DNA of 64,000 nt from Octopus vulgaris (taxonomy: Eukaryota). Position 1 is the stretch's first letter. The number at the start of each line of letters is the position of its first letter. The notes under the pieces are model-generated. The model ran no database searches. It had not been told where the DNA came from and was given only the letters and a program-made list of their open reading frames with translations. Where the stretch lies: contig OX597820.1 in NCBI GenBank assembly GCA_951406725.2, positions 35,774,001 to 35,838,000 on the forward strand, in the 5' to 3' direction. The position numbers and the translations under genes are program-made. Of this stretch, positions 2,583-63,058 are shown piece after piece.

Positions 2583-2614
<32 letters not shown>

Positions 2615-2619
<5 letters not shown>

Positions 2620-2900
2620 TATTATAAAAGGCAGATTTTATCTGCCTCCCTTTGGGAGTTATACAAATCTACAATATAGGATTTCTTCAATTACAATTTA
2701 CCTAGCAATTTTAAGAGTACAATGCATCGCGTCATGCCAGGTCCAGTTTTTAAAATTTAAACTCCAATTAAGCAAAATTTACAGAAAACTCATATTCTGG
2801 TGTGTGTGTCAAATGCTTTTCTTAGTCTGGTTTACACCACACGCAAACGCACACACACAGTGGGCAGCGAATAAAATGAAAGTAATTCACTTACTGTAGT
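2615..2900 (+). mobile_element. Non-autonomous Helitron-like 5' segment (second copy at 21770-21979, minus strand)
   Basis: Starts a|TCtcttattataaaaggcagattttatctgcc; a near-identical reverse-complement copy lies at 21770-21979. Confidence 0.55.
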
Positions 2901-3028
2901 GAGTGATTCTTTCACTCTGCCTCCCACTTCCTCTTTCAACACAGACACGCAAATATATAAATAAAATTGTAAGCTAACGTGCGTGTGTGTGTGTGTGCGC
3001 GCGCGTGTGTGTGTGTGAGGGTGAGCGC

Positions 3029-3060
<32 letters not shown>

Positions 3061-3110
3061 GCGTGAGTGTGTGACAGGAAAGTTTTTTACGACGAATATA
3101 AGTAGCAGAA

Positions 3111-3805
3111 AGATAAGACAGTAAGGTGTGATTTGAGGGAGATTTGGCTGCTATTTCTACCATGTCTAGCTGCCATGTAGGGGTCTCCCTCATAGGCTCA
3201 TACATACATATATACATAGATAAGACAGTAAGGTGTGATTTGGGGGAAATTTGGCTGCTATTTCTACCAGGTCTAGCTGCCATGTAGGGGTCTCCCTCAT
3301 AGGCTCATACATACATATATACATAGATAAGACAGTAAGGTGTGATTTGGGGGAAATTTGGCTGCTATTTCTACCAGGTCTAGCTGCCATGTAGGGGTCT
3401 CCCTCATAGGCTCATACATACATATATACATAGATAAGACAGTAAGGTGTGATTTGGGGGAAATTTGGCTGCTATTTCTACCAGGTCTAGCTGCCATGTA
3501 GGGGTCTCCCTCATAGGCTCATACATACATATATACATAGATAAGACAGTAAGGTGTGATTTGGGGGAAATTTGGCTGCTATTTCTACCAGGTCTAGCTG
3601 CCATGTAGGGGTCTCCCTCATAGGCTCATACATACATATATACATAGATAAGACAGTAAGGTGTGATTTGGGGGAAATTTGGCTGCTATTTCTACCAGGT
3701 CTAGCTACCATGTAGAGGTCCCCCTCATTGGCTCATATATATATACATACATAAGACAGTAAGGTGTGATTTGAGGGAGATTTGGCTGCTGTTTCTACCA
3801 GGTCT
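3111..3805. repeat. 107-bp tandem repeat, about 6.5 copies
   Basis: Unit agataagacagtaaggtgtgatttgggggaaatttggctgctatttctaccaggtctagctgccatgtaggggtctccctcataggctcatacatacatatatacat. The ORF track shows identical ORFs offset by 107 nt. Confidence 0.97.
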
Positions 3806-4135
3806 GTTAGGCCTTCTCATGTAAACTCAAGCTTTCTTATGCCTTGAACATAAGACCAAAGCAGAGAATGTATTCTTTTATTCTTCTGCTTTTTCCAGCC
3901 ATTGGTCTGTGGCCATGCTGGGGCAATGCCTTGAAGAATTGTAGTTTAATGAATCAACTCCAGTTTTATTTTTGTAAGCATTGTACTTATTCTATCTGTT
4001 TCCACTAGGTGACAGGGATGTAAACAAACCAACATTCGTTGTCAAGCAGTGGTGGAGGACAATCACAAGCACAGACACGCACACACACACACATACATGC
4101 ATACATACATATATATATATGTGTGTATATATATA

Positions 4136-7160: not shown

Positions 7161-7795
7161 AAGGCAGCGAGCTGGCAGAATTGTTAGCACGCCGAGCAAA
7201 ATGCTCAGCGCTATTTCGTCTACTGCTACATTCCACCGAGGTCGACTTTGCCTTTCATCCTTTCGGGGTCGATGAAAGAAGTGCAAGTTGAACACTTGGT
7301 GTTGAGGTGGTCGACTTACCCCATCCCCACAAATTTCAGGCCTTGTGCCTATAGTAGAACGGATTATTATCGTTATTATTACAAAGGCGGCGATATGCTT
7401 AGCAAGTATTTCGTCTGCCGCTACGTTCTGAGTTCAAATTCCGCCGAGGTCGACTTTGCCATTCATCCTTTCGGGATCGATAAATTAAGTACCAGTTACG
7501 CACTGGAGTCGATGTAATCGACTTAATTCGTTTGTCTATCCTTGAATGTCCCCTCTATGTTTAGCCCCTTGTGCATGGTAAAGAAATAGGTATTTTGTCT
7601 ATACGTTCTGAGTTCAAAATGCTTAGCTGTATTTCGCCCTTCGCTACGTTCTGAGTTCAAATTCCGCCGTGGTCGACTTTGTCTTTCATCATTTCGGGGT
7701 CAATAAAGTAAGTACCAGTTGCATACAGGAGGTCGATATAATTTACTGGCCCTTTCCCCAAAATTACAGGCTTTGTGCCTTTAGTAGAAATGATT
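7161..7795 (+). mobile_element. SINE family A multimer
   Basis: Head aaggcggcgagctggcagaa..gttagcacgcc, B-box-like gagttcaaattcc, central gaggtcgactttgcctttcatcctttcggggtcgataaa repeated several times. Confidence 0.9.
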
Positions 7796-7874
7796 ACTAT
7801 CGTTATTATTTATGTAATTATTTAGTTTCAAACTCAAAACAATAACCATATTAAAGTCACGTAAAATATTCTTT

Positions 7875-8427
7875 ATTACTCTAGGCACAAGACCCAAAGT
7901 TTCTGGGGAGGGGGCCAGTCGATTAGATCGATCCCAGTACGCAACTGCTATCAACCCCGAAAGGATGAAAGGCAAAGTCGACCTCGGCGAAATTTGAATT
8001 CAGAACGTAAAGACAAACGAAATACCTATTTCTTTACTACCCACAAGGGGCTAAACACAGAGAGGACAAACAAGGGCAGACAAACGGATTAAGTCGATTA
8101 TATCGACCCTATTGCGTAACTGGTACTTATTTAATCGACCCAGAAAGGATGAAAGGCAAAGTCGACCTCAGCGGAACTTGAACTCAGAGCGTAGCGGCAG
8201 ACCAAATACCTATTTCTTTACTATCCACAACGGGTTAAACACAGAGAGGACAGACAAACGGATTAAGTCGATTATATCGACTCCAGAGCGTAACTGGTAC
8301 TTAATTTATCAACCCCGAATGGATGAAAAGCAAAGTCGACCTCGGCAGAATTTGAACTCAACGTAAAGGCAGACGAAATACTGCCAAGTATTCGCCCAGA
8401 GTGCTAACGTTTCTGCCTGCTCGCCTT
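7875..8427 (-). mobile_element. SINE family A trimer, inverted relative to 7161-7795
   Basis: Reverse complement of the same modules. Confidence 0.9.
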
Positions 8428-9724: not shown

Positions 9725-10546
9725 GACGGGCTTCTTTTAGTTTCCGTCTACCAAATCTACTCACAAGTGTTTTGTCGGCTCCAGGCTTTTGTAGTGGGAT
9801 TGAACTCGAAAGCATGAGATTGAGAAGCAAGCTTTTTACCTCACAGCTACGCCTCCGTATATGTATATACCTACATACATATATACATACAAAGTACGGG
9901 GATTTAGTTCACAGAGGATCTAAACGAGTAGGTACACAAGGTAAGTGCTTGCCAATCTTTAATTTACTCCCTCACTCTCTCTACCTCTCTTTCTATTTTT
10001 TTTTCTTTTTACCATTTAATAGCCACTTCCGCTTCCATTCCATTATTGAACGTTCATTGGTTCGCGTCTATTTCTGGATATTTACACTATTACGCTGCCA
10101 TATTTTATAAACATTTTTTATGGCAGAAACGTTAGCACGCCGGGCGAAATGCGTAGCCGTATTTCATCTGTCGTTACGTTCTGAGTTCAAATTCCGCCGA
10201 GGTCGTCTTTGCCTTTCATCCTTTCGGGGTCGACAAATTAAGTACCAGTTACGCACTAGAGTCGATGTAATCGACTTAATCCCTTTGTCTGTCCTTGTTT
10301 GTCCCCTCTATGTTTAGCCCCTTGTGGGCAATAAAGAAATAATATTTACACTATTAGGACTTTAATCTACATCGATTTACACAGGATTGCACCTAAGGAT
10401 TTATGGACTTACTTCTACATGATCGGAAAGCTGAACTGTGAACTTTTATGGTTCTTTTTTCTTCTCTTTCTTCATATCCTTATTCCTTTCTCCTGTCCTC
10501 TGTGTCGTCATTTAATTAATCTATGCTCTTCTCATTTTCCCTATTT

Positions 10547-13122: not shown

Positions 13123-13295
13123 TAGGTGCAGGAGTTGTTGTATGATAAGTAGCTTGCTTACCAACCACATGGTTCCGGGTTCAGTCCCACTGCGTGGTTC
13201 CTTGGGCAAGTGTCTTCTACTATAGCCTCGTGCCGACCAAAGCCTTGTGAGTGGATTTGGTAGACGGAAACTGAAAGAAGCCCGTCGTATATATG

Positions 13296-13328
<33 letters not shown>

Positions 13329-13528
13329 TTGAGTATCTATGTTTGTCCCCAATATCGCTTGACAACCGATGCTGGTGTATTTACGTCCCCGTAACTTAGC
13401 GGTTCGGCAAAAGAGACCGACAGAATAAGTACTAGGCTTATAAAGAATAAGTCCTGGGGTCGATTTGTTCGACTAAAGGCAGTACTCCAGCATGGTCACA
13501 GTTAAATGACTGAAACAAGAAAAAGAGT
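13123..13528 (+). mobile_element. tRNA-derived SINE family B, full length (also 17903-18297 -, 62273-62682 +, many partial copies)
   Basis: Head ggcgcaggagtggctgtgtggtaag..ggttcagtccc, ccttgggcaagtg core, internal microsatellite, tail ggtgctccagcatggccgcagtc..gactgaaacaag. Confidence 0.9.
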
Positions 13529-13835
13529 AACTAAAATTCTTTTAATTTAAAAAGACAAAAAAGAGGACGCAAAAAGAAAAAAGAAAGAAGAAAAGAAAGA
13601 AAACCACTATTTCTGTTTCTGCTGTCTCATAGTCGCCTGCTTTGTGGCTTTCCAAGTGGTTATCTGTGATTCTGGCTGTTAGGGATTGTCGGTCCAGATA
13701 GTTGGTTCACAATAACTACTTGACTTAGAGGAAACCTGTAGATTAATGTTTAGTGATGTGGGATTTCTGTGTATTTGCCTGTCTGTATATGTGTTTGTGC
13801 GAGTTTGCGCATGCTTGTATGAGTGTGCGTTTGTA

Positions 13836-15971: not shown

Positions 15972-16653
15972 CTAAAGACATGGATGTAAGAACAGAGACC
16001 TGCCACCTACACAGTAAAAAAATAATGTCAGAAAGAAAATTATGATATCCAATGACAACCAAACATTAGCTTTTACAATGCGAAGGAGATAATTAACAAC
16101 AAAAAAAACAACAGAGAAACAACAAAAGAAAAGAAAAGAAAAAAACAGTCCTGAAACGCCGGAATGCATAACATGTTTCCGCAGCAATAATTGTTTTGTC
16201 TTTGTCGTTGCCGGTTTTATGTTGATATTGTTCATTTTGTTGTCTTTTTGTTGCTATTGTTGTTGGTTGCTGTTTTTCCATGATTTCGTCCAATAATTCT
16301 CAAAAGTGTGAACCCCCACCTCCACTTCCACCATGAGTGTATACTCACTATTATGTCTCCCACACGAGAAAACAACTTATTCTACATCTCTATAATTGTA
16401 CTTACGTCACAGTGATGATTTTTAAAAAAAACATTAGGAAACAATAATAAATCTCTGAACGAGATATAAACAGTAACTGCACGACAATGTGAGGTATACT
16501 TGCCATCTCATTATGGCTAACCACTAAGGGTGGGTGTTACTGTAGCTTGTAGCCCCAGGAGAACATCGTCTCCAGCTGACTTTAGGCACACTTTCTGTGC
16601 CCTTATGGTATTTGCAAAGGGAGGTCACCCTTCCCTCGTCAACCTAAGTGATA

Positions 16654-16698
16654 CGCACGGACTGCAGTTTCTAGGTATTGACCTGTCGTCGGTGTACG
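16654..16698 (-). ncRNA. Minimal HHR, C4 variant (left arm)
   Basis: cgtaca-CCGACGA-c aggt caat acct a-GAAA-ctgcag-TC-cgtgcg. Confidence 0.6.
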
Positions 16699-16824
16699 AC
16701 AATCACCGGTTTTCGATGAAGGGAGGTCCCAATGCAAATTCTTATATCGTTTTTCTAGTAACTTATCGTCACTGCATATAAGAATTTGCATTGGGACCTC
16801 CCTTCATCGAAAACCGGTGATTGT

Positions 16825-16869
16825 CGTACGCCGACGACAGGTCAATACTTAGAAACTGCAGTCCGTGCG
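16825..16869 (+). ncRNA. Minimal HHR, C4 variant (right arm)
   Basis: cgtacg-CCGACGA-c aggt caat actt a-GAAA-ctgcag-TC-cgtgcg; 6-bp stem I, palindromic stem III, GUC triplet. Confidence 0.65.
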
Positions 16870-18109
16870 CATCACTTAGGTTGACGAGGGGAGGGTGACA
16901 TTCCTTTGCAAATACCATAAGGGCACAGAAAGTGTGCCTAAAGCCAGCTGGAGACGATGTTCTCCTGGGGCTACAAGCTACAGTAACACCCACCCTTAGT
17001 GGTTAGCCATAATGAGATGGCAAGTATACCTCACATTAGAAAACAATTTTCGTTTTATTCAGTATGAAAATTTACCCGACTTCTTTTCAATCTTCACAAC
17101 GTACCCCCACTCATCCCCATCAACACTGGTTTACTTAAAGAAACGAAGGCAGTGTCCATGAATTTTTCCAGGGCTTCTGTAAGTGGTGAGAGAAAAAAAG
17201 AAAGATTGTTCTGAGAATGGGTACCTGGTTACAAAACCTCTAATAAAAATGGACTTCGCTTAAGGTACTCAAGGATCGGATGGTGGTGTTGAACCGGCTA
17301 ATGGGATGTGATTACCCACCAAGACAAAACAAAAACATTGTCTTTGACGGGATTCCATATAGTTTCCATTAACACAATTTCACTCAATGCGTTATTTGTC
17401 CTGAAATTATGTGAGAAGACACCCAAGTTTCAATGTTCGTATTGAACCCAAAGCAATGTAATTGCTAGGGAAAACTTTTTTTATCGTTTAACGAAAAGGG
17501 AGGGCATTGTTCATTACCTTTTACAGGACCTTCTAGAGTGGCGAAAATGAGAGAAAGTATCCTTAAATTGGAGACTTGACCCGAATGTTTACAACAGAAG
17601 GCGCTTCGCCTAAAGCAGCCATAGTACCATGTGGTAGCGTTAAGCCAAACGATGGACAACGTTAATTCATGAAACACACTGTTGTTGTTGCTGGTATTTA
17701 ATTCTAAGATAGTACTTATTGAGCAAATACTGGCACTCCGTCGGTTACGACGACGAGTGTTCCAGCTGGCCCAATCAACGGAACGTCCTGCTCGTGAAGT
17801 TAACGTGCAAAATAGCTGGGCACTCCACAGATATGCGTTCTCTTAACGTAGTGTGACACAAAATGTGACAAGGGTAGCCTTTGGAAATACATGTACTCTT
17901 TTATTCTTTTATTTGATTCAGTCATTTGACTGCGGCCATACTGGAGCACCGCTTTTAGTCGAGCAAATCGGCCCCAGGACTTATTCTTTATACGCCTAGT
18001 ACTTATTCTATCGGTCTCTCTTGCCGAACCGCTAAGTTACGGGGACGTAAATACACCAGCATCGGTTGTCAAGTGATGTTGGGGGGGGGGAGACAAACAC
18101 AGGCACACA

Positions 18110-18149
<40 letters not shown>

Positions 18150-19869
18150 ACAGGCTTCTTTCAGTTTCCGTCTACCAAATCCACTCACAAGGCTTTGTTC
18201 GGCCCTAGGCTATAATAGAAGACACTTGCCCAAGGTGCCACGCTGTGGGACTGAACCCGGAACCATGTGGTTGGTAAGCAAGCTACTTACCACACAGCAA
18301 CTTTTACCAGCTGAGTGGATTGGAGCAACGTAAAATTCGTTTCTCTGTCTTTGTTTGTCCTCTTTGTGTTTAGCCCCTTGTGGGTAGTAAAGAAATAGGT
18401 ATTTCGTCTGTCTTTACATTCTGATTTCAAATTCCGCCGAGGTCGATAAATCAACTCCCCCTCCCCACTTACAAAAAACAAATGCGGGCCTTGTGCCTAG
18501 AGTAGAAAAGAATATATAGTCTTTATTCTGTAACATTGTGTATCTAAGATCGAGTTATCCAAATGTATGTTTCATTGATTAGGCAGTAGAGTGTGACCCG
18601 AAGAAGATTTGGCTGCTATTTTTAGCAGGTTGCTCATTCGTATAGGTGTCATCCCGTAGATTCTCGCCCGATTAGTTGCATAAAAAATGGTATTTAGTTA
18701 AAGAAAGGAAAATATATTTCAATAATATAATCATAGGCGAAGGCACGGCTGTGTGGTTAAGACGCTCGCTTTGTAACCACGTGATATCGGGTCTGTACCA
18801 CGTCTTCTGCTTTAGCCCCGAGTCACTTTGTGAGTGAACTTGATAGAAGAAAACTGTGTAGAAGCCCGTTGAGTATACACATACGTGTATGTGTGTGTGT
18901 GTGCGCGTGTGTATGTGTGTGTGTGGATTTGTGGTAAGAAGCTTGCTTCCCATCCACATGGTCCCGGTTTCAGTCCTACTGTGTGGCACATTGGGCAACT
19001 GTCGTCTATTATAGCCTCAGACCGATCAAAGCCCTGCGAGTGATTTAGTAGACGGAAACAGAAGGAAGCTCGCCGTGTGTGTATATATGTGTGTGCGTGT
19101 GTGTGTGTGTATCTTTGTGTTTATCCCACCACTACTGCTGACAACCGGTGTTGGTGTGTTTATGTCTCCATAACTTAACGATCCGGAGTAAAAAAAAAAT
19201 GATAAAATAAGCACCAAACTCGAATAAAGATATGTACTGAGGTTGATTTGCGTGACTAAACCCCTCTAGGCGGTGCCCAAGCATGGCCACAGTCCAATAT
19301 CTAGAACAAATAAAAGATAAAAGATTTAAATGGTCTCTTGTAGACTGCGCCAAATTATAAATAATAGATCGTGCCAAGAGCTTATGCCAAAAAGAAAAAT
19401 TATGCAAGATCTTACTAAGTGTTTCTCTTTGTTTTTTTCTCTCTTCTCATTTTTTTTTTTTTTGCTTGAGTTTATTCCTAGTGGAATATTAACGATTCTA
19501 TCTGTAGATATGAGGTTATATCCAATGGCAACGTTACGTAAATTTGCAGGAAATAATTCAAGAAAATCGGTCTGGAATACAGAAAAATTGGAATACAGAA
19601 ACCATACAAAAGTGAAGCTCCATTAGTTACATAAGAAGATCGAATGAAATATCTCTTATCTAAAACTGTTTGATCATGGAAAGAAGAATTGATTCTAATA
19701 ATGTAGCAATAAAAAAAAAAAATGGTCGGCCATAGAATATTCCAAAGATTGTGAAAGAAGTAGAAGATTATGCAGTGTCGGTCTGAGATGGAGCAGGCGG
19801 CGTGGTGGTGTTTTTATACTATTATGAATGATTGGTGCAAAATTAAACAAGGTCTGACTGTTTTTATTG

Positions 19870-21680: not shown

Positions 21681-22129
21681 AAGAGAAAGGAGAAATTAGA
21701 GTGATAGCATCATTGAAACAGTTCGCTCCGTTTGTGTGTGTGTGCGCTTGCGTGTGGTGTAGGCCACACTAAGAAAAGCATTTGTCATATACACCACAAT
21801 GTGAGTTTTCTCTAAATTTTGCTTAATTGGGGTTGAAATTTTAAAAACTGGACCTGGCACGACCCGATGCATTCTACTCTTAAAAATGCTAGGTAAATTG
21901 TAATTGAAGAAATCCTATATTGTAGATTTCTATAAGATACAAAGGGAGGCAGATAAAATCTGCCTTTTATAATAAGAGATACTAGCATTAAAGAGCCGTC
22001 GTTGCCGGGTCATAGTGCTAGTGCATGTATATCTGTATATATATGTATGTACATCTATATATATATATACATCTACATACAAAGTTATATCTTGATATCG
22101 CTAGTGATAACAATACTCAAAATATATAG

Positions 22130-22447
22130 CAGACTGGAATTGTTAGCCCGTCTCTTGTAATTTCGATCAATTGTATCTTGTCCTCCCTCTTGTATAGAAG
22201 TGTGGCTACAATCCAGCCTACCTCTACTTCGGGGGGGGGGGCATTTATAATTTTTTTCCTGGACGTCCTACGTCCCAGATATAAAGGTAAAAATAAAATA
22301 TTTCCACTTTGCAAGTTCGAGTCGAGTACTCCCGTGCACGCTCCGTTGACTCGAACCTTGCTTCTATTGTGGCTAATTTACCGCCTCTGATTAGATACCT
22401 TTCATAGTCGCACCAAGACACTTTTCGAAGGTGCTTTCCTCCAGGTG
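22130..22447 (-). pseudogene. Older diverged ORF1 paralog, 3' part (interrupted; 5' part at 24218-24360)
   Basis: STFEKCLG..RYLIRGGKLATIEARF..LFLPLYLGRRTSRKKIINAPPPEVEVGWIVATLL aligns with AEIEKCLG..TYVSRGKKFGTVEVRC..MWPSYKGRRGVRVKIPNIPPEVKTEWLATAIL. Confidence 0.8.
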
Positions 22448-24217
22448 ATTTTATTATTACCCACAAGGGGCGAACATAGAGGGGACAATACAATCGGGGA
22501 ACTTAAAATAAGAAAGCGAATGACAAGAAAAGGAAAAAATAAAAGTAAAAATGACATATGAAAGAATATTTACAATGAGATGTAAATGCCCACTCGATCC
22601 CCGGAATCGAGAGGTTACATTTTCGTCACATATATTTCACAATATTTTCTTTTTTTTTTCTTTCTTCTTTCTTGTCTCTCTTCTCACAGTTCTATACATA
22701 TTCCATGATAGTTTTCAACTCTCTAAAGTCTATCACTGAGCCCTCAGGCAGCCGCTCTCTCACTCGAACACTCGTGTAGAATGTTACACTCTCACCGGCA
22801 GCTCTGAGGAACTCAGCGACTCTTTCTTCGGGGATTAGAGCAGTCTCCTGCCACTGATCGGTCATCCTGTTGACCCATATATGTCCCTCCGTACTACTTG
22901 TCAATTCTTTCATTTCAGGGCAGAAATGGAAGGTTATTAACTTGTAGAAGCCGTGATCTTGTTTCCGTCCTACGTTTTCCCTCGTTTTTCTTTTCGGGCT
23001 TATTTCTTCCTTGTTCTCCTCTCTTTGTTTCTCTCTTTCTCTCTTTTTGCCTTCTTTTCTTTCCTCTTCCTTCTCTTGTCTTTTTGGTTCTTTGTCTGTT
23101 CTATCTTTCTCTCGTGTTTTATGTTCCTTTTCTTTTTCTTTTTGTGTGCCGTCTTTTCTTTTCATTTGGTTCTGATCTCTCTCTTGTTTTTTTCCTGTTG
23201 TTTCTTTTTCCTTTTTCTTTTCCTGACTCTGTTTTGGTTCTATTTCTTTCTTTTCTTTTATTTCTTTTTCCTTCATTGACTTATTATTTCCTTTCTCTTG
23301 TTGTTTTGTTTCCTTTTCTATGTTTTCTTTTTCATTTACCGTATTCTTCTTTTCGAGTTCCTGCTCGCACTCCGCTACGAATTCGTATAACGGGCACTCT
23401 TTTTTAATGTGCCCCCTTGTCCCGCACAAGTAGCAGTTTGGCTTTCTTCCTCTACAATTACACTGAGGGTTTTCTCATCTTCGATTTCTATTCTGTAGGG
23501 GAACCTTTCAATGTCCTCTTTTGTGGCCATCAAACACAGTTCTACCCCATATCCTCTCCAGTTTATCACGTTGGACTCCTTAAAGGATTCCACCTCCACT
23601 TCCTCTTCTGCTGCTCCTAGAATAGCTGTTGCCAGCCATTCTGTTTTTACTTCTGGGGGTATATTCGGGATTTTAACCCGGACCCCTCTTCTTCCCTTGT
23701 ATGAGGGCCACATTGTAAATGTTTCCGCTCTTAGTACAGTGGTAGCCAGTGATGCTGCAATTTCTTCCGTTGCACATCTCACCTCCACCGTACCAAATTT
23801 CTTGCCTCTACTCACGTAGGTCGATTTCCCCATTATGTCTCCCAGACATTTTTCGATTTCTGCTATCTCCACTCTTGCCAGTTTCTTTGTATATTTGTCT
23901 TGGGTTCTATATGTTACAGTCTTATTTTCTTTGTCCTCTTTTGCTTTCGCGGGGGGATTAGCTTCACGCTATCACCCTCCCTTTTGAATAGTTTTTCATA
24001 TTCTTTGAGTTTACTCTTCTCAAAGAAAACATCCTTCACGATTATCGACGAATCATTATTCCTCTTTCCCGTGACCCCCGCGTAAGTCGCCATGACTAGA
24101 GGGTCAATTCACCTTCTTCGGAAGGTTTCCACACGTGGAGGCAAACGCCTCGCGCGATAATAATCAATTTACACAACAAAATTTCACTGTCTAATCACAG
24201 ATAACAACACGTATAGA
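22448..24217 (-). mobile_element. ORF1-only (HAL1-like) non-LTR retroelement with 13-bp TSD
   Basis: TSD tttcctccaggtg at 22435-22447 and 24218-24230. Contains a single ORF1 and no RT/EN; 3' tail tgtcccctctatgttcgccccttgtgggtaataataaaat. Confidence 0.85.
22692..24093 (-). pseudogene. L1/Tx1-like ORF1 (gag-like, CCHC zinc knuckle, Lys/Glu-rich linker) with two frameshifts
   Basis: ATG at 24093 (MATYAGVTGKR). Frameshifts in the C-run near 23955 and near 23445; knuckle CYLCGTRGHIKKEC; stop at 22692. Confidence 0.8.
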
Positions 24218-24499
24218 TTTCCTCCAGGTGTTCAAATCTTCTTTTTTCTCTACATTGTATAGACAATAGTCTTTTCTTTAATTTAATTTTTTATTATCCA
24301 TCTGGACTATTCCATTTCTGCACGCTAATTTTATTTTTAATTTATTCCCATTCATTTGAAACCACTTATTCAAGTTCAAATCATTGATGCAATTTTATAC
24401 GAATTGCTATTTTTACTTTTTTTATGTTACGATTATATTATACTTTAGTTTGATTTTAATTATTACTTACTACATATAATTCAATTGTTATTATTATTT

Positions 24500-24888
24500 T
24501 TATTGTTAAAGTGAAAGTATCTGACATAAAATAGAGAAACGTTTTTGTTTCACTTTTAACACGTAATACTGAAATAGTGGAAAAGATATGATATTGCTAT
24601 GGGCTCGCTCTAGGCAAGAAGTTGAACATTTTTTTACCCATGAAACTACATGGACCCTAAGTAAGGCATGTGTAAAATTTGAATGGAATTGGTTGTGTAG
24701 TTCTCAAGTTTTAGGGAATCGTAATGGAGAAGATATGCTATTGCTGTCGGCTCGCCCCTAGGCAAAAAGTTTAAATTCTTTTTTGCCGACGACACTCCCC
24801 GGACCCTAAGTAAGGCATGTGTAAAATTTGAATGAAATTGGTTGTGTAGTTCTCAAGTTTTATGGAGGCAGACAGACACACATAAAGA
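24500..24888 (-). mobile_element. Helitron-like 5' region with internal duplication; its CTAG 3' end may be at 21982
   Basis: Repeated ggaccctaagtaaggcatgtgtaaaatttgaat module (also at 20390-20470); CTAG plus hairpin at 21982-22010. Confidence 0.45.
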
Positions 24889-25169
24889 TAAACAATATGA
24901 GAGACTGCTATGTGGATCCCTTGAATGCTAAAAATAGACGTCAAACCGTCTTACCACGAAATCTGTGTTCTCAAATTAGCAAGACGCTAGATGTTTACGA
25001 GTTAGACATATGAAAAGAAATAAGCGCTATGTTTATTTCTTTCCATTCGTCTAGCTCGTAAACATCTAGCGTCTTGCTAATTTGAGAACAGAGAATTCGT
25101 GGTAAGACGGTTTGACGTCTATTTTTAGCATACACGGGATCCATATAGTGACCTCTCATATTGTTTATA
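24887..25169. repeat. Foldback (near-complete palindrome of about 280 bp)
   Basis: Arms ataaacaatatgagag...gttagac / gtctagc...ctctcatattgtttat with a self-complementary centre. Confidence 0.85.
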
Positions 25170-25299
25170 TTTAGAGAGTAATTTGCTAACTACATTTACA
25201 TGAGAAACAGTATTTCAGTCAGTGTCAATTCATTTAATGCAAGAAGCAATTTATAGTTAACTTTTTTGAATTAGTTTGGTCCATGGACTTCACAAGCTC

Positions 25300-28019: not shown

Positions 28020-28645
28020 TAATAATGGTTTCAAATTTTGGAAGAAGCTCGGAAAATCTAGGGCAAAGGGTAAGTCGGTTGCATCGATCCCAGCGTTTAC
28101 CTGCTACTTATTTATCACCCTCGAAAGAATGACAAGTAAACTTCGGCGTAAAACGTAAAACCGGAAGAAATCCCACCAAGCATTTTGTCTAATGTGTTAA
28201 CGATTCTTATTTCTTTATGGCCCACAAGGGGCTAAACATAGAAGGGACAAACAAGGACAGACAAAGGCATTAAGTCGATTACATCGACCCCAGTGTGTAA
28301 CTGGTACTTAATTTATCGACCCCGAAAGGATAAAAGGCAAAGTCGACCTCGGCGGAATTTAAACTCAGAACGTAACGGCAGACGAAATACGGCTACGCAT
28401 TTCGCCCGGTGTGCTAACGTTTCTGCCAGCTCGCCGCCTTCGTCCCATTCCTAATTATGGTTTCAAATTTTGGCACAAGGCCAGCGAATTCGGAGGAGGG
28501 GTTAAGTCGATTACCTCGGCTGTAGTGTTCAACTGGTATTTATTTTATCGACCCTGGCGGAATTTGAACTCAGAACGTAAAACCGGATGAAAGCCACTAA
28601 ACATTTTGTCCAACGTGCTAACGATTTAGCAAGCTCGCCGCCTTC
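28020..28645 (-). mobile_element. SINE family A cluster
   Basis: Reverse-complement family A modules. Confidence 0.85.
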
Positions 28646-37785: not shown

Positions 37786-38345
37786 AGGCAGCGAGCTGGC
37801 AGCATCGTTAGCACGCCGGACGAAATGCCGTTACGTTCTGAGTTCAAATTCCGCCGAGGTCGACTTTGGCTTTCATCCTTTCGGGGTCGATAAATTAAGT
37901 ACCAGTTACGCACTGGGGTCGATGTCATCAACTTAATCCGTTTGTCTGCCCTTGTTTGTCCTCTCTGTGTTTAGCCCCTTGTGGCTAGTAAAGAAATAGG
38001 TATTTCGTCTGTCTTTATGTTCTGAGTTCAAATTCCGCCGAGGTCGACTTTGCCTTTCATCTTTTCGGGGTCGATTAAATAAGTGCCAGTTACGCACTGG
38101 GGTTGATGTAATCGACTTAATCCGTTTGTCTGTCCTTGTTTGTCCCCTCTGTGTTTAGCCCCTTGTGGGCAGTAAAGAAATAGGTATTACGTTCGTCTTT
38201 ATGTTCTGAGTTCCAATTCCGTCGAAGTCGACTTTGACTTTTATCCTTTCGGGGTCGATAAAGTAAGTATCAGTGAAACACCGGGGTCGATATAATCGAT
38301 TTATCCCCTCCCTTAAAATTTCTGCCCTTGTGGCAATATTTGAAA
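37786..38345 (+). mobile_element. SINE family A trimer
   Basis: Three tandem central modules; two end in tail 1 and the last in tail 2. Confidence 0.9.
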
Positions 38346-46287: not shown

Positions 46288-46720
46288 AGGCGGCGAGCTG
46301 GCAGAATCGTTAGCACGCCGGGCGAAATGCTTACCGGTATTTCGTCTGCCGTTACGTTGTGAGTTCAAATTCCGCCGAGGTCGACTTTGCCTTTCATCCT
46401 TTCGGGGTCGATTAAATTAGTACCAGTTACGCACTGGGGTCGATGTAATCGACTTAATGTCCTTGTTTGTCCCCTCTGTGTTTAGCCCCTTGTGGGCAAT
46501 AAAGAAATAAGAATCGTTAGCACGCCGGAGAAAATGCTTAGCGGTATTTCGTCTGCGCTACATTCTGAGTTCAAATTCCGCCGAGGTCAACTTTGCCTTT
46601 CATCCTTTCGGGATCGATAAATTAGATTGACTCCAGTTTCGTACTGGAGTCAATCTAATCGACTGCCCCCCACCAAAAACAAAAAAAGAAATCGGGCCTT
46701 GTGCCTAGAGTAGAAAAATA
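46288..46720 (+). mobile_element. SINE family A dimer
   Basis: Head, central module, tail 1, restart at gaatcgttagcacgcc, tail 2. Confidence 0.9.
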
Positions 46721-51514: not shown

Positions 51515-52050
51515 TATATACTCTGGGCACACGGTCCGAATTATTTGGGGAGGGGGCTAGTCGATTAGATCGGCACCAGTACGCAACTGCTACTTAATTT
51601 CTCGACCCCGAAGGTTGACAGGCAAAGTCGATCTCGGCGGAATTTGAACTCAGAACGTAAAAACAGAGGAAATACCTATTTCTTTACTCCCCACAAGGGG
51701 TTAAACACAGAGAGGACAACCAAGGACAGACAAACGGATTAAATCGATTACATCGACCCCAGTGCGTAACTGGTACTTATTTAATCTACTCCGAAAGGAT
51801 AAAAGGCAAAGTCGACCTCGGTGGAATTTGAACTCAGAACGTAGCGGCAAACGAAATACCTATTTCTTTACTACCCACAAGGGACCAAACACAGAAAGGA
51901 CAAACAAGGACTGACAAACAGATTAAGTCGATTACATCGACCCCAGGGCGTAACTGGTACTTAATTTATCGACCCCGAAAGGATGAAAGGCAAAGTCGAC
52001 ATCGGCGAAATTGGAACTCAGAACGTAAAGACAGACGAAATACCGCTAAT
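51515..52050 (-). mobile_element. SINE family A trimer
   Basis: Same architecture as 7875-8427. Confidence 0.9.
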
Positions 52051-57449: not shown

Positions 57450-57756
57450 CTTTTATTTGTGTGTGTGTGTGTGTGTGTGTTCTTTTTTATTTGTTTCAGT
57501 CATTTGATTGCAGCCATGCTGGAGCACTGTCTTTAGTCAAACAAATCGATCCCAGGACTTATTCTTTGTAAGCCTAGTACTTATTCTGTCAGTTACCTTT
57601 GCCGAACCGCTAAGCTACGGGGACGTAAACACACCAGCATCGGTTGTCAAGCGATGGTGGGGGGGGACAAACACAAACACACAAACTACTCAGTCAATTA
57701 TTTTCTCTCTTCCTAAGTGTGTGTGTGTGTATGTGTGTGTGTGTGTGCGCGCGCGC

Positions 57757-58534: not shown

Positions 58535-59090
58535 CATTATTATTATCGTTGTTGTTATTGTTATTAAGGCGGCGAGCTGGCAGAAACGTTAGCACGCCGG
58601 GCGAAATGCCTAGTGGTATTTCGTCTGTCGTTACGTTCTGAGTTCAAATTCCGCCGAGGTCAACTTTGCCTTTCATCTTTTCCGGGTCGATTAAATAAGT
58701 ACCAGTTACGCACTGGGGTCGATGTAAATGACTTAATCCCTTTGTCTGTCCTAGTTTGTCCCCTCTATGTTTAGACCCTTGTGGGCAATAAAGAAATAAG
58801 AAACGTTAGCACGCCCGGCGAAATGCTTAGAGGTATTTCGCCTGTCTTTACGGTCTGAGTTCAAATTCCGCCGAGGTCGACTTTGCCTTTTATCCTTTTG
58901 GGGTCGATAAATTAAGTACCAGTTGCGTACCGGGGTCGATCTAACAGATTGGCCCCCATCCCCCCAACATTCTGGGCCTAGAGTAGAAAGGATTATTATT
59001 GTTGTTGTTATTGCAAAGGTGGTGAGTTGGCAGAGGCGTTAGCGCATCGAACAAAGTGCTTAGCTGCATTTCTTCCGGCTCTTTACCTAT
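58075..59090 (+). mobile_element. SINE family A cluster interleaved with (ATT)n
   Basis: Multiple heads, modules and tails bounded by attatt runs. Confidence 0.9.
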
Positions 59091-62083: not shown

Positions 62084-63058
62084 ATATTTAGAAGAAGTAA
62101 TTGAGTGACTCAAGGTCCTAGAGTTTTGTGCGTTGGCACTTAAACTTATTACTTGTTTTTCTTTGCTTTTTTATTCTACATCTCACAATGAATGGATCCC
62201 TCTCTTAGAACCAAATTTCCATCACAGGAACTCAAATAACAATCGAAAGAAATAGATTTTATACACATACATAGGCGCAGGAGTGGCTGTGTGGTAAGTA
62301 GCTTGCTAACCAACCACATGGTTCCGGGTTCAGTCCCACTCCGTGGCATCTTGGGCAAGTGTCTTCTGCTATGGCCCCGGGCCGACCATTGCCTTGTGAG
62401 TGAATTTGGTAGACGGAAACTGAAAGAAGCCTGTCGTATATATGTATGTATATATATATGTATGTGTGTGTTTGAGTGTCTGTGTTTACGCCCTCTAGCA
62501 TTGCTTGACAACCGATGCTGGTGTGTTTACGTCCCCGTCACTTAGCGGTTCGGCAAAAAGAGACCGATAGAATAAGTACTGGGCTTACAAAGAATAAGTC
62601 CCGGGGTCGATTTGCTCGACTAAAGGCGGTGCTCCAGCATGGCCGCAGTCAAATGACTCAAACAAGTAAAAGAGTAAAAGAGTATACATGCATACATACA
62701 TAAATACATACATGCATACATACACACACACACACATATATATATATATTCCCCCTTCACCTCCTTTACCACATCCTCCTTCTCCACCGCCGTCTCCTCT
62801 TCCTCCTTCTCCACTTCCCCTCTTCTTTGTCTCCCTCCATATCCGCCGACTCTATGAATCTTCGTCTCTCACTGTGTATAGCGACCCATTACTCATTGCC
62901 GGCCGCCAAGCCTAATAGGTGCACTCATCTTGCACCTGCTACGTTAACTCTTTTTTCTTACGATGTCATTGTCCGAAGTCAGGACGCCGTGATAGATCGT
63001 TAGCTACTACACGCATTTTTTTCTCTCCTTGTTTCTCTCCTTGTTTTTTTCTGTGTAT

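What the first reader, a model, noticed from the sequence alone, without database searches (positions are those of the whole stretch)
22435..24230. ORF1-only non-LTR retroelement that shares its 3' tail with an abundant SINE
Seen: a 1.77-kb unit bounded by a perfect 13-bp TSD (tttcctccaggtg). It has a 5' UTR of about 125 nt, one gag-like CCHC ORF1, a 3' UTR of about 245 nt and no RT or endonuclease. Its last 35 nt or so (tgtcccctctatgttcgccccttgtgggtaataataaaat) match SINE family A tail 1 (tgtcccctctatgtttagccccttgtgggcaataaagaaat). Known: SINEs borrow the 3' tail of their partner LINE, and ORF1-only HAL1 elements exist in the L1 clade. Inference: a three-member system in which an unseen L1/Tx1-like RT mobilises both this chaperone-only element and the SINE, or a bipartite LINE with ORF1 and ORF2 on separate RNAs.
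Basis: partly seen in the sequence, partly recalled or inferred. Interest (0 to 1): 0.82.

Follow-up and report, generated by a model that had tools for sequence, protein, structure and literature searches.

The report
Octopus ORF1-only retroelement sharing SINE tail
A 1.8-kb mobile element in octopus DNA, present in many copies, carries only one RNA-binding-type gene and ends in the same 45-base tail as an abundant short repeat (SINE), so both likely borrow the copying enzyme of a full-length retrotransposon that was not seen here.

Summary
A 1,770-bp unit (22448-24217, minus strand) lies between exact 13-bp repeats. It has a 124-nt 5' UTR, one ORF1 (about 466 codons, two 1-base frameshifts in this copy), a 244-nt 3' UTR, and no RT or endonuclease. 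Its last 45 nt match a tRNA-type SINE tail (41 of 47 columns). Contigs of public runs show the empty site with one 13-mer, so the repeat is a true TSD inside a very high-copy repeat. Other copies keep the frame open at both breaks. Twenty other Octopus vulgaris gene models carry this ORF1, often under adjacent accessions, and a head-to-tail junction exists. ORF1 is an RRM-like fold plus one CCHC knuckle (type I, Tx1/L1-like), with an excess of synonymous changes. Best reading: a young non-autonomous ORF1-only LINE family, working like HAL1, HeT-A or Ag-Sponge, moved in trans by an unseen partner, probably Tx1, that also moves the SINE. The partner was not found, so clade and trans-mobilisation are inferred. 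Two insertion sites share 10 of 14 bases, a hint of target preference. No support for a two-RNA bipartite LINE. New variant of a known kind.

The parts
22435..22447 (+). Target-site duplication, copy at the element's 3' end (13 bp)
   Evidence: Exact repeat; empty-site joint 22434 to 24218, skip 1783, 13 letters fit both sides, runs X1 and X3
22448..22493 (-). 3' tail shared with the tRNA-type SINE, ending in an A-rich stretch against the TSD
   Evidence: 41 of 47 columns, score 58 vs shuffle maximum 28; nine SINE tails hit by blastn
22448..22691 (-). 3' UTR, 244 nt
   Evidence: bridged by contigs of other copies (records 9, 10, 25)
22692..24093 (-). ORF1, about 466 codons; two 1-base frameshifts in this copy, near 23950 and 23448
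   Evidence: contigs with one more base at each break in all four runs (table 4)
22695..22946 (-). Small C-terminal alpha/beta domain of ORF1p (low-confidence model, no known match)
   Evidence: Model residues about 297-376; no usable atlas hit
22956..23375 (-). Charged low-complexity tract of ORF1p, 64% K/E/R/D, predicted partly helical
23391..23438 (-). Single CCHC zinc knuckle
   Evidence: Pfam PF00098 E=3.2e-5, 24.3 bits vs cut-off 20.8
23451..23704 (-). RRM-like (ferredoxin-fold) domain directly before the knuckle
   Evidence: AlphaFold2 pLDDT about 90; best Foldseek rows are RRM proteins at E 2e-3 to 1e-2; VIA Z up to 6.5 over residues 44-131
24094..24217 (-). 5' UTR, 124 nt; same 5' end in a second copy
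   Evidence: head-to-tail joint at 24216; folding z = -2.8
24218..24230 (+). Target-site duplication, copy at the element's 5' end (13 bp)
22077..22447 (.). Left part of the high-copy host repeat that was the target (left limit approximate)
   Evidence: Summed contig depth about 25-69 times the ORF1 median in three runs
24218..24866 (.). Right part of the host repeat, with a 149-bp tandem subrepeat (right limit not defined; reads laid only to 24700)
10121..10340 (+). The one SINE copy in the window that ends free in the shared tail; 15-bp direct repeat at 10078 and 10342

Best explanation
This is a multicopy 1.77-kb element with a true target-site duplication, one ORF1 and no reverse transcriptase, which likely spreads as a non-autonomous LINE using the reverse transcriptase/endonuclease of an unseen full-length partner, probably of the Tx1 clade. 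Shown: boundaries, TSD, empty sites, many copies, open frame in other copies, RRM-like fold plus CCHC knuckle, tail shared with the SINE. Inferred steps: (1) the 5' UTR drives a full-length polymerase II transcript; (2) its ORF1p coats that RNA in cis and co-assembles with the partner's proteins, which would explain why the frame is kept; (3) the partner's ORF2p recognises the last 45 nt or so and carries out target-primed reverse transcription, leaving a 13-15 bp TSD; (4) the SINE carries the same tail and is copied by the same or a sister enzyme; (5) repeated insertion at a preferred site (CACCTGG-N4-AAG in two junctions) inside other repeats builds short head-to-tail arrays. Step 5 is the weakest.
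For: True insertion: empty-site joint in 2 of 4 runs (X1, 7 contigs; X3, 6 contigs). Family: 21 distinct proteins with this ORF1 (one is the window's own) on contigs of 8 different lengths; 19 of 21 end at the same stop, 16 of 21 read through the second break, 17 of the 20 others are 92-98.5% identical over the last 190 aa. Same short structure elsewhere: contigs with 13 and 8 substitutions bridge 22568-22736 and 22495-22610 in run X10, and one bridges 22462-22638 in X9. Summed depth of the 3' UTR bin is 0.73-1.5 times the 5' UTR bin and 1.1-1.8 times the ORF1 median, not the 3' pile-up expected of a long 5'-truncating LINE. Coding constraint: 12 synonymous and 12 non-synonymous among 24 listed variants, expected synonymous share 0.20-0.26, P 0.0009-0.011. 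ORF1 type; type I ORF1p (RRM plus CCHC) goes with Tx1 in non-mammalian animals (PMC5203782, passages). The tail works as an end on its own: a free SINE copy has a 15-bp direct repeat. Candidates exist: 13 recently active L1-Tx1 families, 421 insertions, 2.29 Mb in O. vulgaris (PMC13282606). Arrays: head-to-tail joint in X3 (table 5c) and five groups of adjacent accessions.
Against: No partner was seen, so neither the clade nor trans-mobilisation is tested. No second complete copy with its own flanks was read; the family structure is pieced from short contigs, and only 15 of 93 joints and 24 of 1,270 loose-end rows were shown. The tool states that depth is no copy number, and the bin at the ORF1 stop was partly skipped as a repeat. 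Adjacent accessions do not exclude an ORF2 between copies if RT-bearing models were filtered out. None of the named close copies starts at the window's ATG, and only about half of the depth shows the extra base at each break. The SINE's free copy does not share the element's target motif. The tail shows no compensatory base changes and folds weakly. Fold matches are below the usual thresholds (no Foldseek E <= 0.001; Z < 8). Mollusc SINE tails described so far pair with CR1, L2 and Nimb, not Tx1 (PMC11481361, passages).
Confidence: 0.72

Rival explanations
1. Chimera: the ORF1 comes from a Tx1-type LINE, but the last 45 nt were captured from the SINE by template switching, so the element now rides a different LINE (for example Nimb, L2 or CR1) than the one its ORF1 came from.
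For: The match stops sharply at about 45 nt. Tail exchange by template switching is the accepted route for SINE modules (PMC4824008, passages). The SINE itself has two alternative tails in this window. Known mollusc partners are CR1, L2, Nimb.
Against: SINE-LINE tail matches in bivalves are 35-61 bp at 72-95% identity, which fits this match without capture. The element's tail differs from all ten aligned SINE tails at the same few positions.
Confidence: 0.12
2. One-off or rare internal deletion: most copies are autonomous ORF1-ORF2 elements and this copy lost ORF2 during or after insertion.
For: No second full copy was read end to end; the depth bin at the ORF1 stop is low (22637-22727, partly skipped as a repeat).
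Against: Diverged contigs in another species label join the stop to the same 3' UTR; even depth from 5' UTR to 3' UTR; no loose end with foreign sequence after the stop among the rows shown.
Confidence: 0.08
3. Bipartite LINE: ORF1 and ORF2 lie on separate RNAs that share the tail and need each other.
For: ORF1 shows coding constraint and many young copies; no autonomous element with this ORF1 was seen.
Against: No ORF2-only unit was seen. The ORF1 family is large (238 relatives) and young L1-Tx1 insertions average about 5.4 kb, long enough for two ORFs. HAL1, HeT-A and Ag-Sponge keep ORF1 although their partners have one (PMC5786205, section 23).
Confidence: 0.05
4. A host or domesticated zinc-knuckle gene (ZCCHC3-like) amplified by retrocopying and tandem duplication.
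For: Atlas leads include ZCCHC3-like clusters (0.86-0.87, TM about 0.5); copies cluster under adjacent accessions.
Against: No poly(A) run, a SINE-shared tail, one fixed 5' end, insertion in a repeat, a diverse octopod-wide family with many broken members.
Confidence: 0.03

Closest known systems
HAL1 (half-L1) of mammals
   Same: Non-autonomous, encodes ORF1p only, arose repeatedly (PMC5753468 passages; PMC5786205 section 23).
   Different: HAL1 derives from mammalian L1, whose ORF1p is type II (Transposase_22; PMC5203782); no such Pfam hit here. This element has a type I ORF1p, no poly(A) run, and a sequence tail shared with a SINE.
HeT-A and other ORF1-only telomeric elements of Drosophila (Jockey clade)
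   Same: ORF1-only, depends on another family's ORF2, forms head-to-tail arrays (PMC13534243 abstract and passages).
   Different: Not telomeric: copies are on many contigs and this one sits in an interspersed repeat; one knuckle; much shorter UTRs (HeT-A anatomy recalled).
Ag-Sponge of Anopheles (CR1 clade)
   Same: ORF1-present non-autonomous LINE.
   Different: CR1-derived; its anatomy was not read here.
Tx1-clade LINEs (Xenopus Tx1, crocodilian Tx1-Mar; octopus L1-Tx1)
   Same: Type I ORF1p; many prefer fixed sites in non-autonomous DNA transposons (PMC4494074 passages and section 15); active in O. vulgaris.
   Different: No ORF2 here, so the clade cannot be set by RT; an ORF1-only Tx1 derivative was not found in the searches run.
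Octopus tRNA-derived SINEs (OR1 and relatives; tRNA-CORE class)
   Same: The window's SINE is abundant and has a head-core-tail layout with two tails; OR1 is listed as an octopus CORE-SINE (PMC4824008).

Membership tests
ORF1-present non-autonomous LINE (HAL1/HeT-A/Ag-Sponge kind) | Encodes an ORF1p-type protein and no ORF2 | tested here: met
ORF1-present non-autonomous LINE (HAL1/HeT-A/Ag-Sponge kind) | Inserted as one unit with a TSD, no LTR or terminal inverted repeats | tested here: met
   (empty-site joint)
ORF1-present non-autonomous LINE (HAL1/HeT-A/Ag-Sponge kind) | Amplified as a family in the short form | tested here: met
   Indirectly: bridging contigs of diverged copies, even depth, 21 ORF1 proteins; no second full copy read
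ORF1-present non-autonomous LINE (HAL1/HeT-A/Ag-Sponge kind) | 5' and 3' parts traceable to an autonomous LINE | not testable with these tools
HAL1 in the strict sense | Mammalian L1 type II ORF1p (Transposase_22) | tested here: not met
   No such Pfam hit in the pieces or in 40 relatives; CCHC present
Tx1 clade | Type I ORF1p: RRM plus CCHC knuckle | tested here: met
   Knuckle by Pfam; RRM-like fold by model, below strict thresholds; type I also occurs in other clades
Tx1 clade | RT phylogeny | not testable with these tools
   The element has no RT and the partner was not found
Tx1 clade | Target-sequence preference (common, not universal) | tested here: inconclusive
   Two junctions share 10 of 14 bases, first 7 identical; n = 2
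SINE-LINE partnership by shared tail | Tail similarity at the extreme 3' end of both elements | tested here: met
SINE-LINE partnership by shared tail | Conserved stem-loop with compensatory changes | tested here: inconclusive
   11 tails, 10 predicted pairs, none with a change on both sides; little divergence
SINE-LINE partnership by shared tail | An RT-bearing LINE ends in the same tail | not testable with these tools

The most novel reading that the evidence does not exclude
A target-seeking, array-forming ORF1-only element whose own ORF1p helps choose the landing site: it and the SINE feed the same reverse transcriptase through one tail, yet only the ORF1-bearing RNA lands at CACCTGG-N4-AAG sites inside other repeats. 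In the strongest form the RT partner has no working ORF1 and the two act as one split LINE, a HeT-A-like division of labour away from telomeres.
Probability: 0.1. Interest if true: 0.82.

Novelty: new variant of a known kind. Interest (0 to 1): 0.5.

Why it matters
ORF1-only LINEs are known from three clades (L1, Jockey, CR1). A Tx1-type case in a mollusc would be a fourth independent origin. It also names, indirectly, the enzyme behind one tail of a very abundant octopus SINE; SINEs make up 11.6% of the O. vulgaris genome. One tail carried by a coding and a non-coding passenger is a natural test of what ORF1p in cis adds: efficiency, full-length copying or target choice. Practically, at least 20 O. 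vulgaris 'uncharacterized protein' models are this element's ORF1, not host genes.

Tried and rejected
No related locus in metagenome or prokaryote contigs; no tail match in viral or metagenome contigs. A profile search among proteins of 1,092-3,115 aa found no ORF1-ORF2 fusion; the tool calls this weak evidence. Long relatives checked by Pfam were gene-model fusions with host domains (astacin, LDLa, WD40), none with RT (20 proteins). Inspection of six-frame ORFs of 90 aa or more showed no obvious RT in the window (read by eye, not scanned with Pfam). No tRNA or Rfam hit for the SINE. PDB sequence search found only knuckles. No run on record as RNA was listed; X9 is only guessed to be RNA, so expression is untested. 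The idea that the 89-aa ORF seen upstream in some gene models is an ORF1 C-terminal domain failed: HMM and profile scores were no better than shuffles. Earlier scan notes: four look-ups, nothing. Literature: no paper describing this element or an ORF1-only Tx1 derivative; tail and core motifs hit only two unrelated papers. Repbase/Dfam and the repeat library of PMC13282606 could not be searched, Bao and Jurka 2010 was not held, and four supplementary files of PMC9115989 were not searched, so the family may already be catalogued as an unnamed or L1-Tx1 consensus. Rejected: tail as a separate SINE fragment (no own TSD; it abuts the unit's TSD; other copies carry it joined to the same UTR).

Full report
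Observation. Between them lie 1,770 bp. On the minus strand: 124 nt of 5' UTR, an ATG at 24093, a stop at 22692-22694 and 244 nt of 3' UTR. The reading frame is broken twice by one base, near 23950 and 23448, giving pieces of about 46, 166 and 252 codons. Pfam finds only a CCHC knuckle (E 3.2e-5). The last 45 nt match the tail of a SINE at 41 of 47 columns; the score of 58 compares with a maximum of 28 in 2,000 shuffles, and nothing else in the element matches the SINE.

Host. All named close relatives of the ORF are Octopus vulgaris gene models. Of ten more distant relatives looked up, eight carry a species name: O. bimaculoides, O. sinensis, O. vulgaris or Argonauta. The window is therefore taken to be octopus DNA.

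It is a real insertion. Contigs of four public runs were laid on 22000-24700 (4 of the 24 runs listed). Both flanks have summed depth about 25, 29 and 69 times the ORF1 median in X1, X3 and X10: the element sits in a very abundant repeat. A joint from 22434 to 24218 that skips 1,783 bases, with 13 letters fitting either side, is present in X1 (7 contigs) and X3 (6 contigs). It is the target with one copy of the 13-mer. Because the flank is repeated, these empty sites are probably paralogous copies, not an empty allele of this locus. The tail lies inside the TSD and touches it, so it is the unit's own 3' end.

It is a family. Of 29 proteins in the close clusters, 21 carry this ORF1 (I dropped eight that hold only an unrelated 89-aa ORF; four further relatives at 49-57% identity were not counted). 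They lie on contigs of eight different lengths. One is the window's own product. Nineteen of 21 end at the same stop, 16 of 21 read through the second break, and 17 of the other 20 are 92-98.5% identical over the last 190 aa. In all four runs, contigs carry one more base at each break, in about half of the depth in the three large runs (table 4). Both breaks are in short single-base runs, so they may be assembly errors; this was not tested. Against a simple picture, none of the named close copies starts at the window's ATG, although the first 47 residues match more distant relatives (E 6e-7 to 0.004 within the session's proteins).

The short form is shared, on indirect evidence. In X10 (another species label) one contig with 13 substitutions bridges 22568-22736, across the stop, and one with 8 bridges 22495-22610; in X9 one bridges 22462-22638 (table 8). 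Depth in the 3' UTR bin is 0.73, 0.87, 1.05 and 1.50 times the 5' UTR bin. A long LINE with this UTR would be expected to pile up 3' ends (established knowledge of 5' truncation). Limits: the tool says depth is no copy number, the bin at the stop was partly skipped, and most joint and loose-end rows were not shown.

The protein. A search of 1.84 billion representatives gave 238 relatives. The model of a close copy, built on 40 sequences, has pLDDT near 90 over residues 40-170 and is disordered further on. Residues 44-131 form a ferredoxin-like fold; the best Foldseek rows are RRM proteins (TAP, UPF3B, IMP3; E 2e-3 to 1e-2, none at 0.001), and VIA-align gives Z up to 6.5 with ribosomal S6, ACT and RRM domains tied. 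The knuckle follows at 133-148. Atlas leads are CCHC and ZCCHC3-like RRM-CCHC clusters. This is a type I ORF1p, which in non-mammalian animals goes with Tx1 (PMC5203782, passages), but it does not fix the clade. Among the 24 variants listed inside ORF1 (40 of 129 rows were shown), 12 are synonymous against 20-26% expected, P 0.0009-0.011, omega about 0.25-0.35. The rows are the best-supported ones and mix species, so this is a rough sign of constraint, which may in part predate the loss of ORF2.

The SINE. It has a head, a core and two alternative tails. Twelve copies end in the shared tail; 11 run straight into another SINE unit at one of two points, and one (10121-10340) ends free, with a 15-bp direct repeat at 10078 and 10342 and 28 unexplained bases before the head. 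So the tail can serve as a terminus, with a TSD of similar length. The tail folds weakly and shows no compensatory change in 11 sequences. The SINE was not matched to a published family.

Arrays and target. One X3 contig (depth 377) joins the element's 5' end to another copy's tail through a 14-nt spacer (table 5c). The spacer and this copy's target share 10 of 14 bases, the first seven exactly (P about 3e-4 for a fixed register). Matching bases may help such a joint be listed, and n is two. Five groups of adjacent accessions (CAI9715245-49 with 51; CAI9739099-101; CAI9719596-97; CAI9729052-53; CAJ1099379-80) fit short arrays if numbering follows position, which I assume. Many Tx1 elements prefer fixed sites in non-autonomous DNA transposons (PMC4494074, passages and section 15). 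The free SINE copy does not share the motif.

Mechanism. Most likely (0.72) the element is a non-autonomous LINE that kept the promoter region, ORF1 and the 3' recognition tail. Its RNA would be coated by its own ORF1p and copied by a partner's ORF2p through the tail, as would the SINE. Kojima describes this class and suggests that the proteins multimerise with those of the partner (PMC5786205, section 23 read). Candidates exist: 13 recently active L1-Tx1 families with 421 insertions over 2.29 Mb, 80 families in all (PMC13282606, first third of the text, term search and supplement). Rivals: tail captured from the SINE with another LINE as carrier (0.12), rare deletion of an autonomous element (0.08), split two-RNA LINE (0.05), host gene family (0.03).

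Comparison. It works like HAL1, HeT-A and Ag-Sponge. It is not HAL1 in the strict sense (no type II ORF1p; PMC5753468, passages). Membership of Tx1 cannot be tested without an RT. Repeated loss of ORF2 with arrays is described for Drosophila telomeric elements (PMC13534243, passages). Bivalve SINE tails match CR1, L2 and Nimb over 35-61 bp (PMC11481361, passages), which fits the size of this match but not the Tx1 guess. Other papers seen as passages only: PMC4758252, PMC8967140, PMC4824008, PMC9115989. The searches listed under Tried and rejected found no description of this element; repeat databases were out of reach.

Verdict. Real, mobile and multicopy; a new variant of a known kind. Interest 0.5. 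It would rise to about 0.8 if target choice depends on ORF1 in cis or if the partner lacks its own ORF1 (probability about 0.1).

Noticed in passing
window 7162-8425, 18334-18507, 28209-28570, 37786-38309, 46288-46715, 51559-52048, 58567-58988: SINE multimers: units ending in tail 1 run into the next unit at one of two fixed points in the head, and the last unit often ends in tail 2. Either self-targeted insertion or multimers moved as a whole.
   Followed up: partly
proteins P0166-P0173, P0180-P0182, P0160, P0015 (not in the window): A young multicopy 89-aa ORF (identical on 9 contigs) is joined to this ORF1 or a close relative in five gene models on four contigs. No Pfam family, no homology to the ORF1 C-terminal domain. 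It may belong to an element that sits upstream in mixed arrays, perhaps the partner.
   Followed up: partly
window 22077-22447 and 24218-24866: The host repeat is very abundant in reads, has variants lacking about 22147-22447, a 149-bp tandem subrepeat and a short CAGA-type stretch near 24868. It recalls non-autonomous Helitron/DINE-like elements (recalled, untested).
   Followed up: no
window about 24890-25170: A long palindromic element (MITE-like) just right of the host repeat, seen in the sequence.
   Followed up: no
window 16486-17037: Inverted repeat with 262-nt arms, 97% complementary, 28 nt apart.
   Followed up: no
window 3004-3838: Tandem array of a 107-bp unit with copies 98-99% alike.
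   Followed up: no
window 2613-2859 and 21735-21981; 13133-13530, 17901-18302, 57482-57686, 62282-62479: Two further interspersed repeat families, the first directly left of the host repeat.
   Followed up: no
window 23754-23921: Contigs about 85% identical here continue with different sequence towards the ORF1 5' end, and proteins at 49-57% identity exist (P0015, P0163-P0165): a sister subfamily that could include the autonomous partner.
   Followed up: no
window 24094-24217: The 5' UTR folds better than 198 of 200 shuffles (z = -2.8), the first ten bases pairing with a stretch about 80 nt on.
   Followed up: partly
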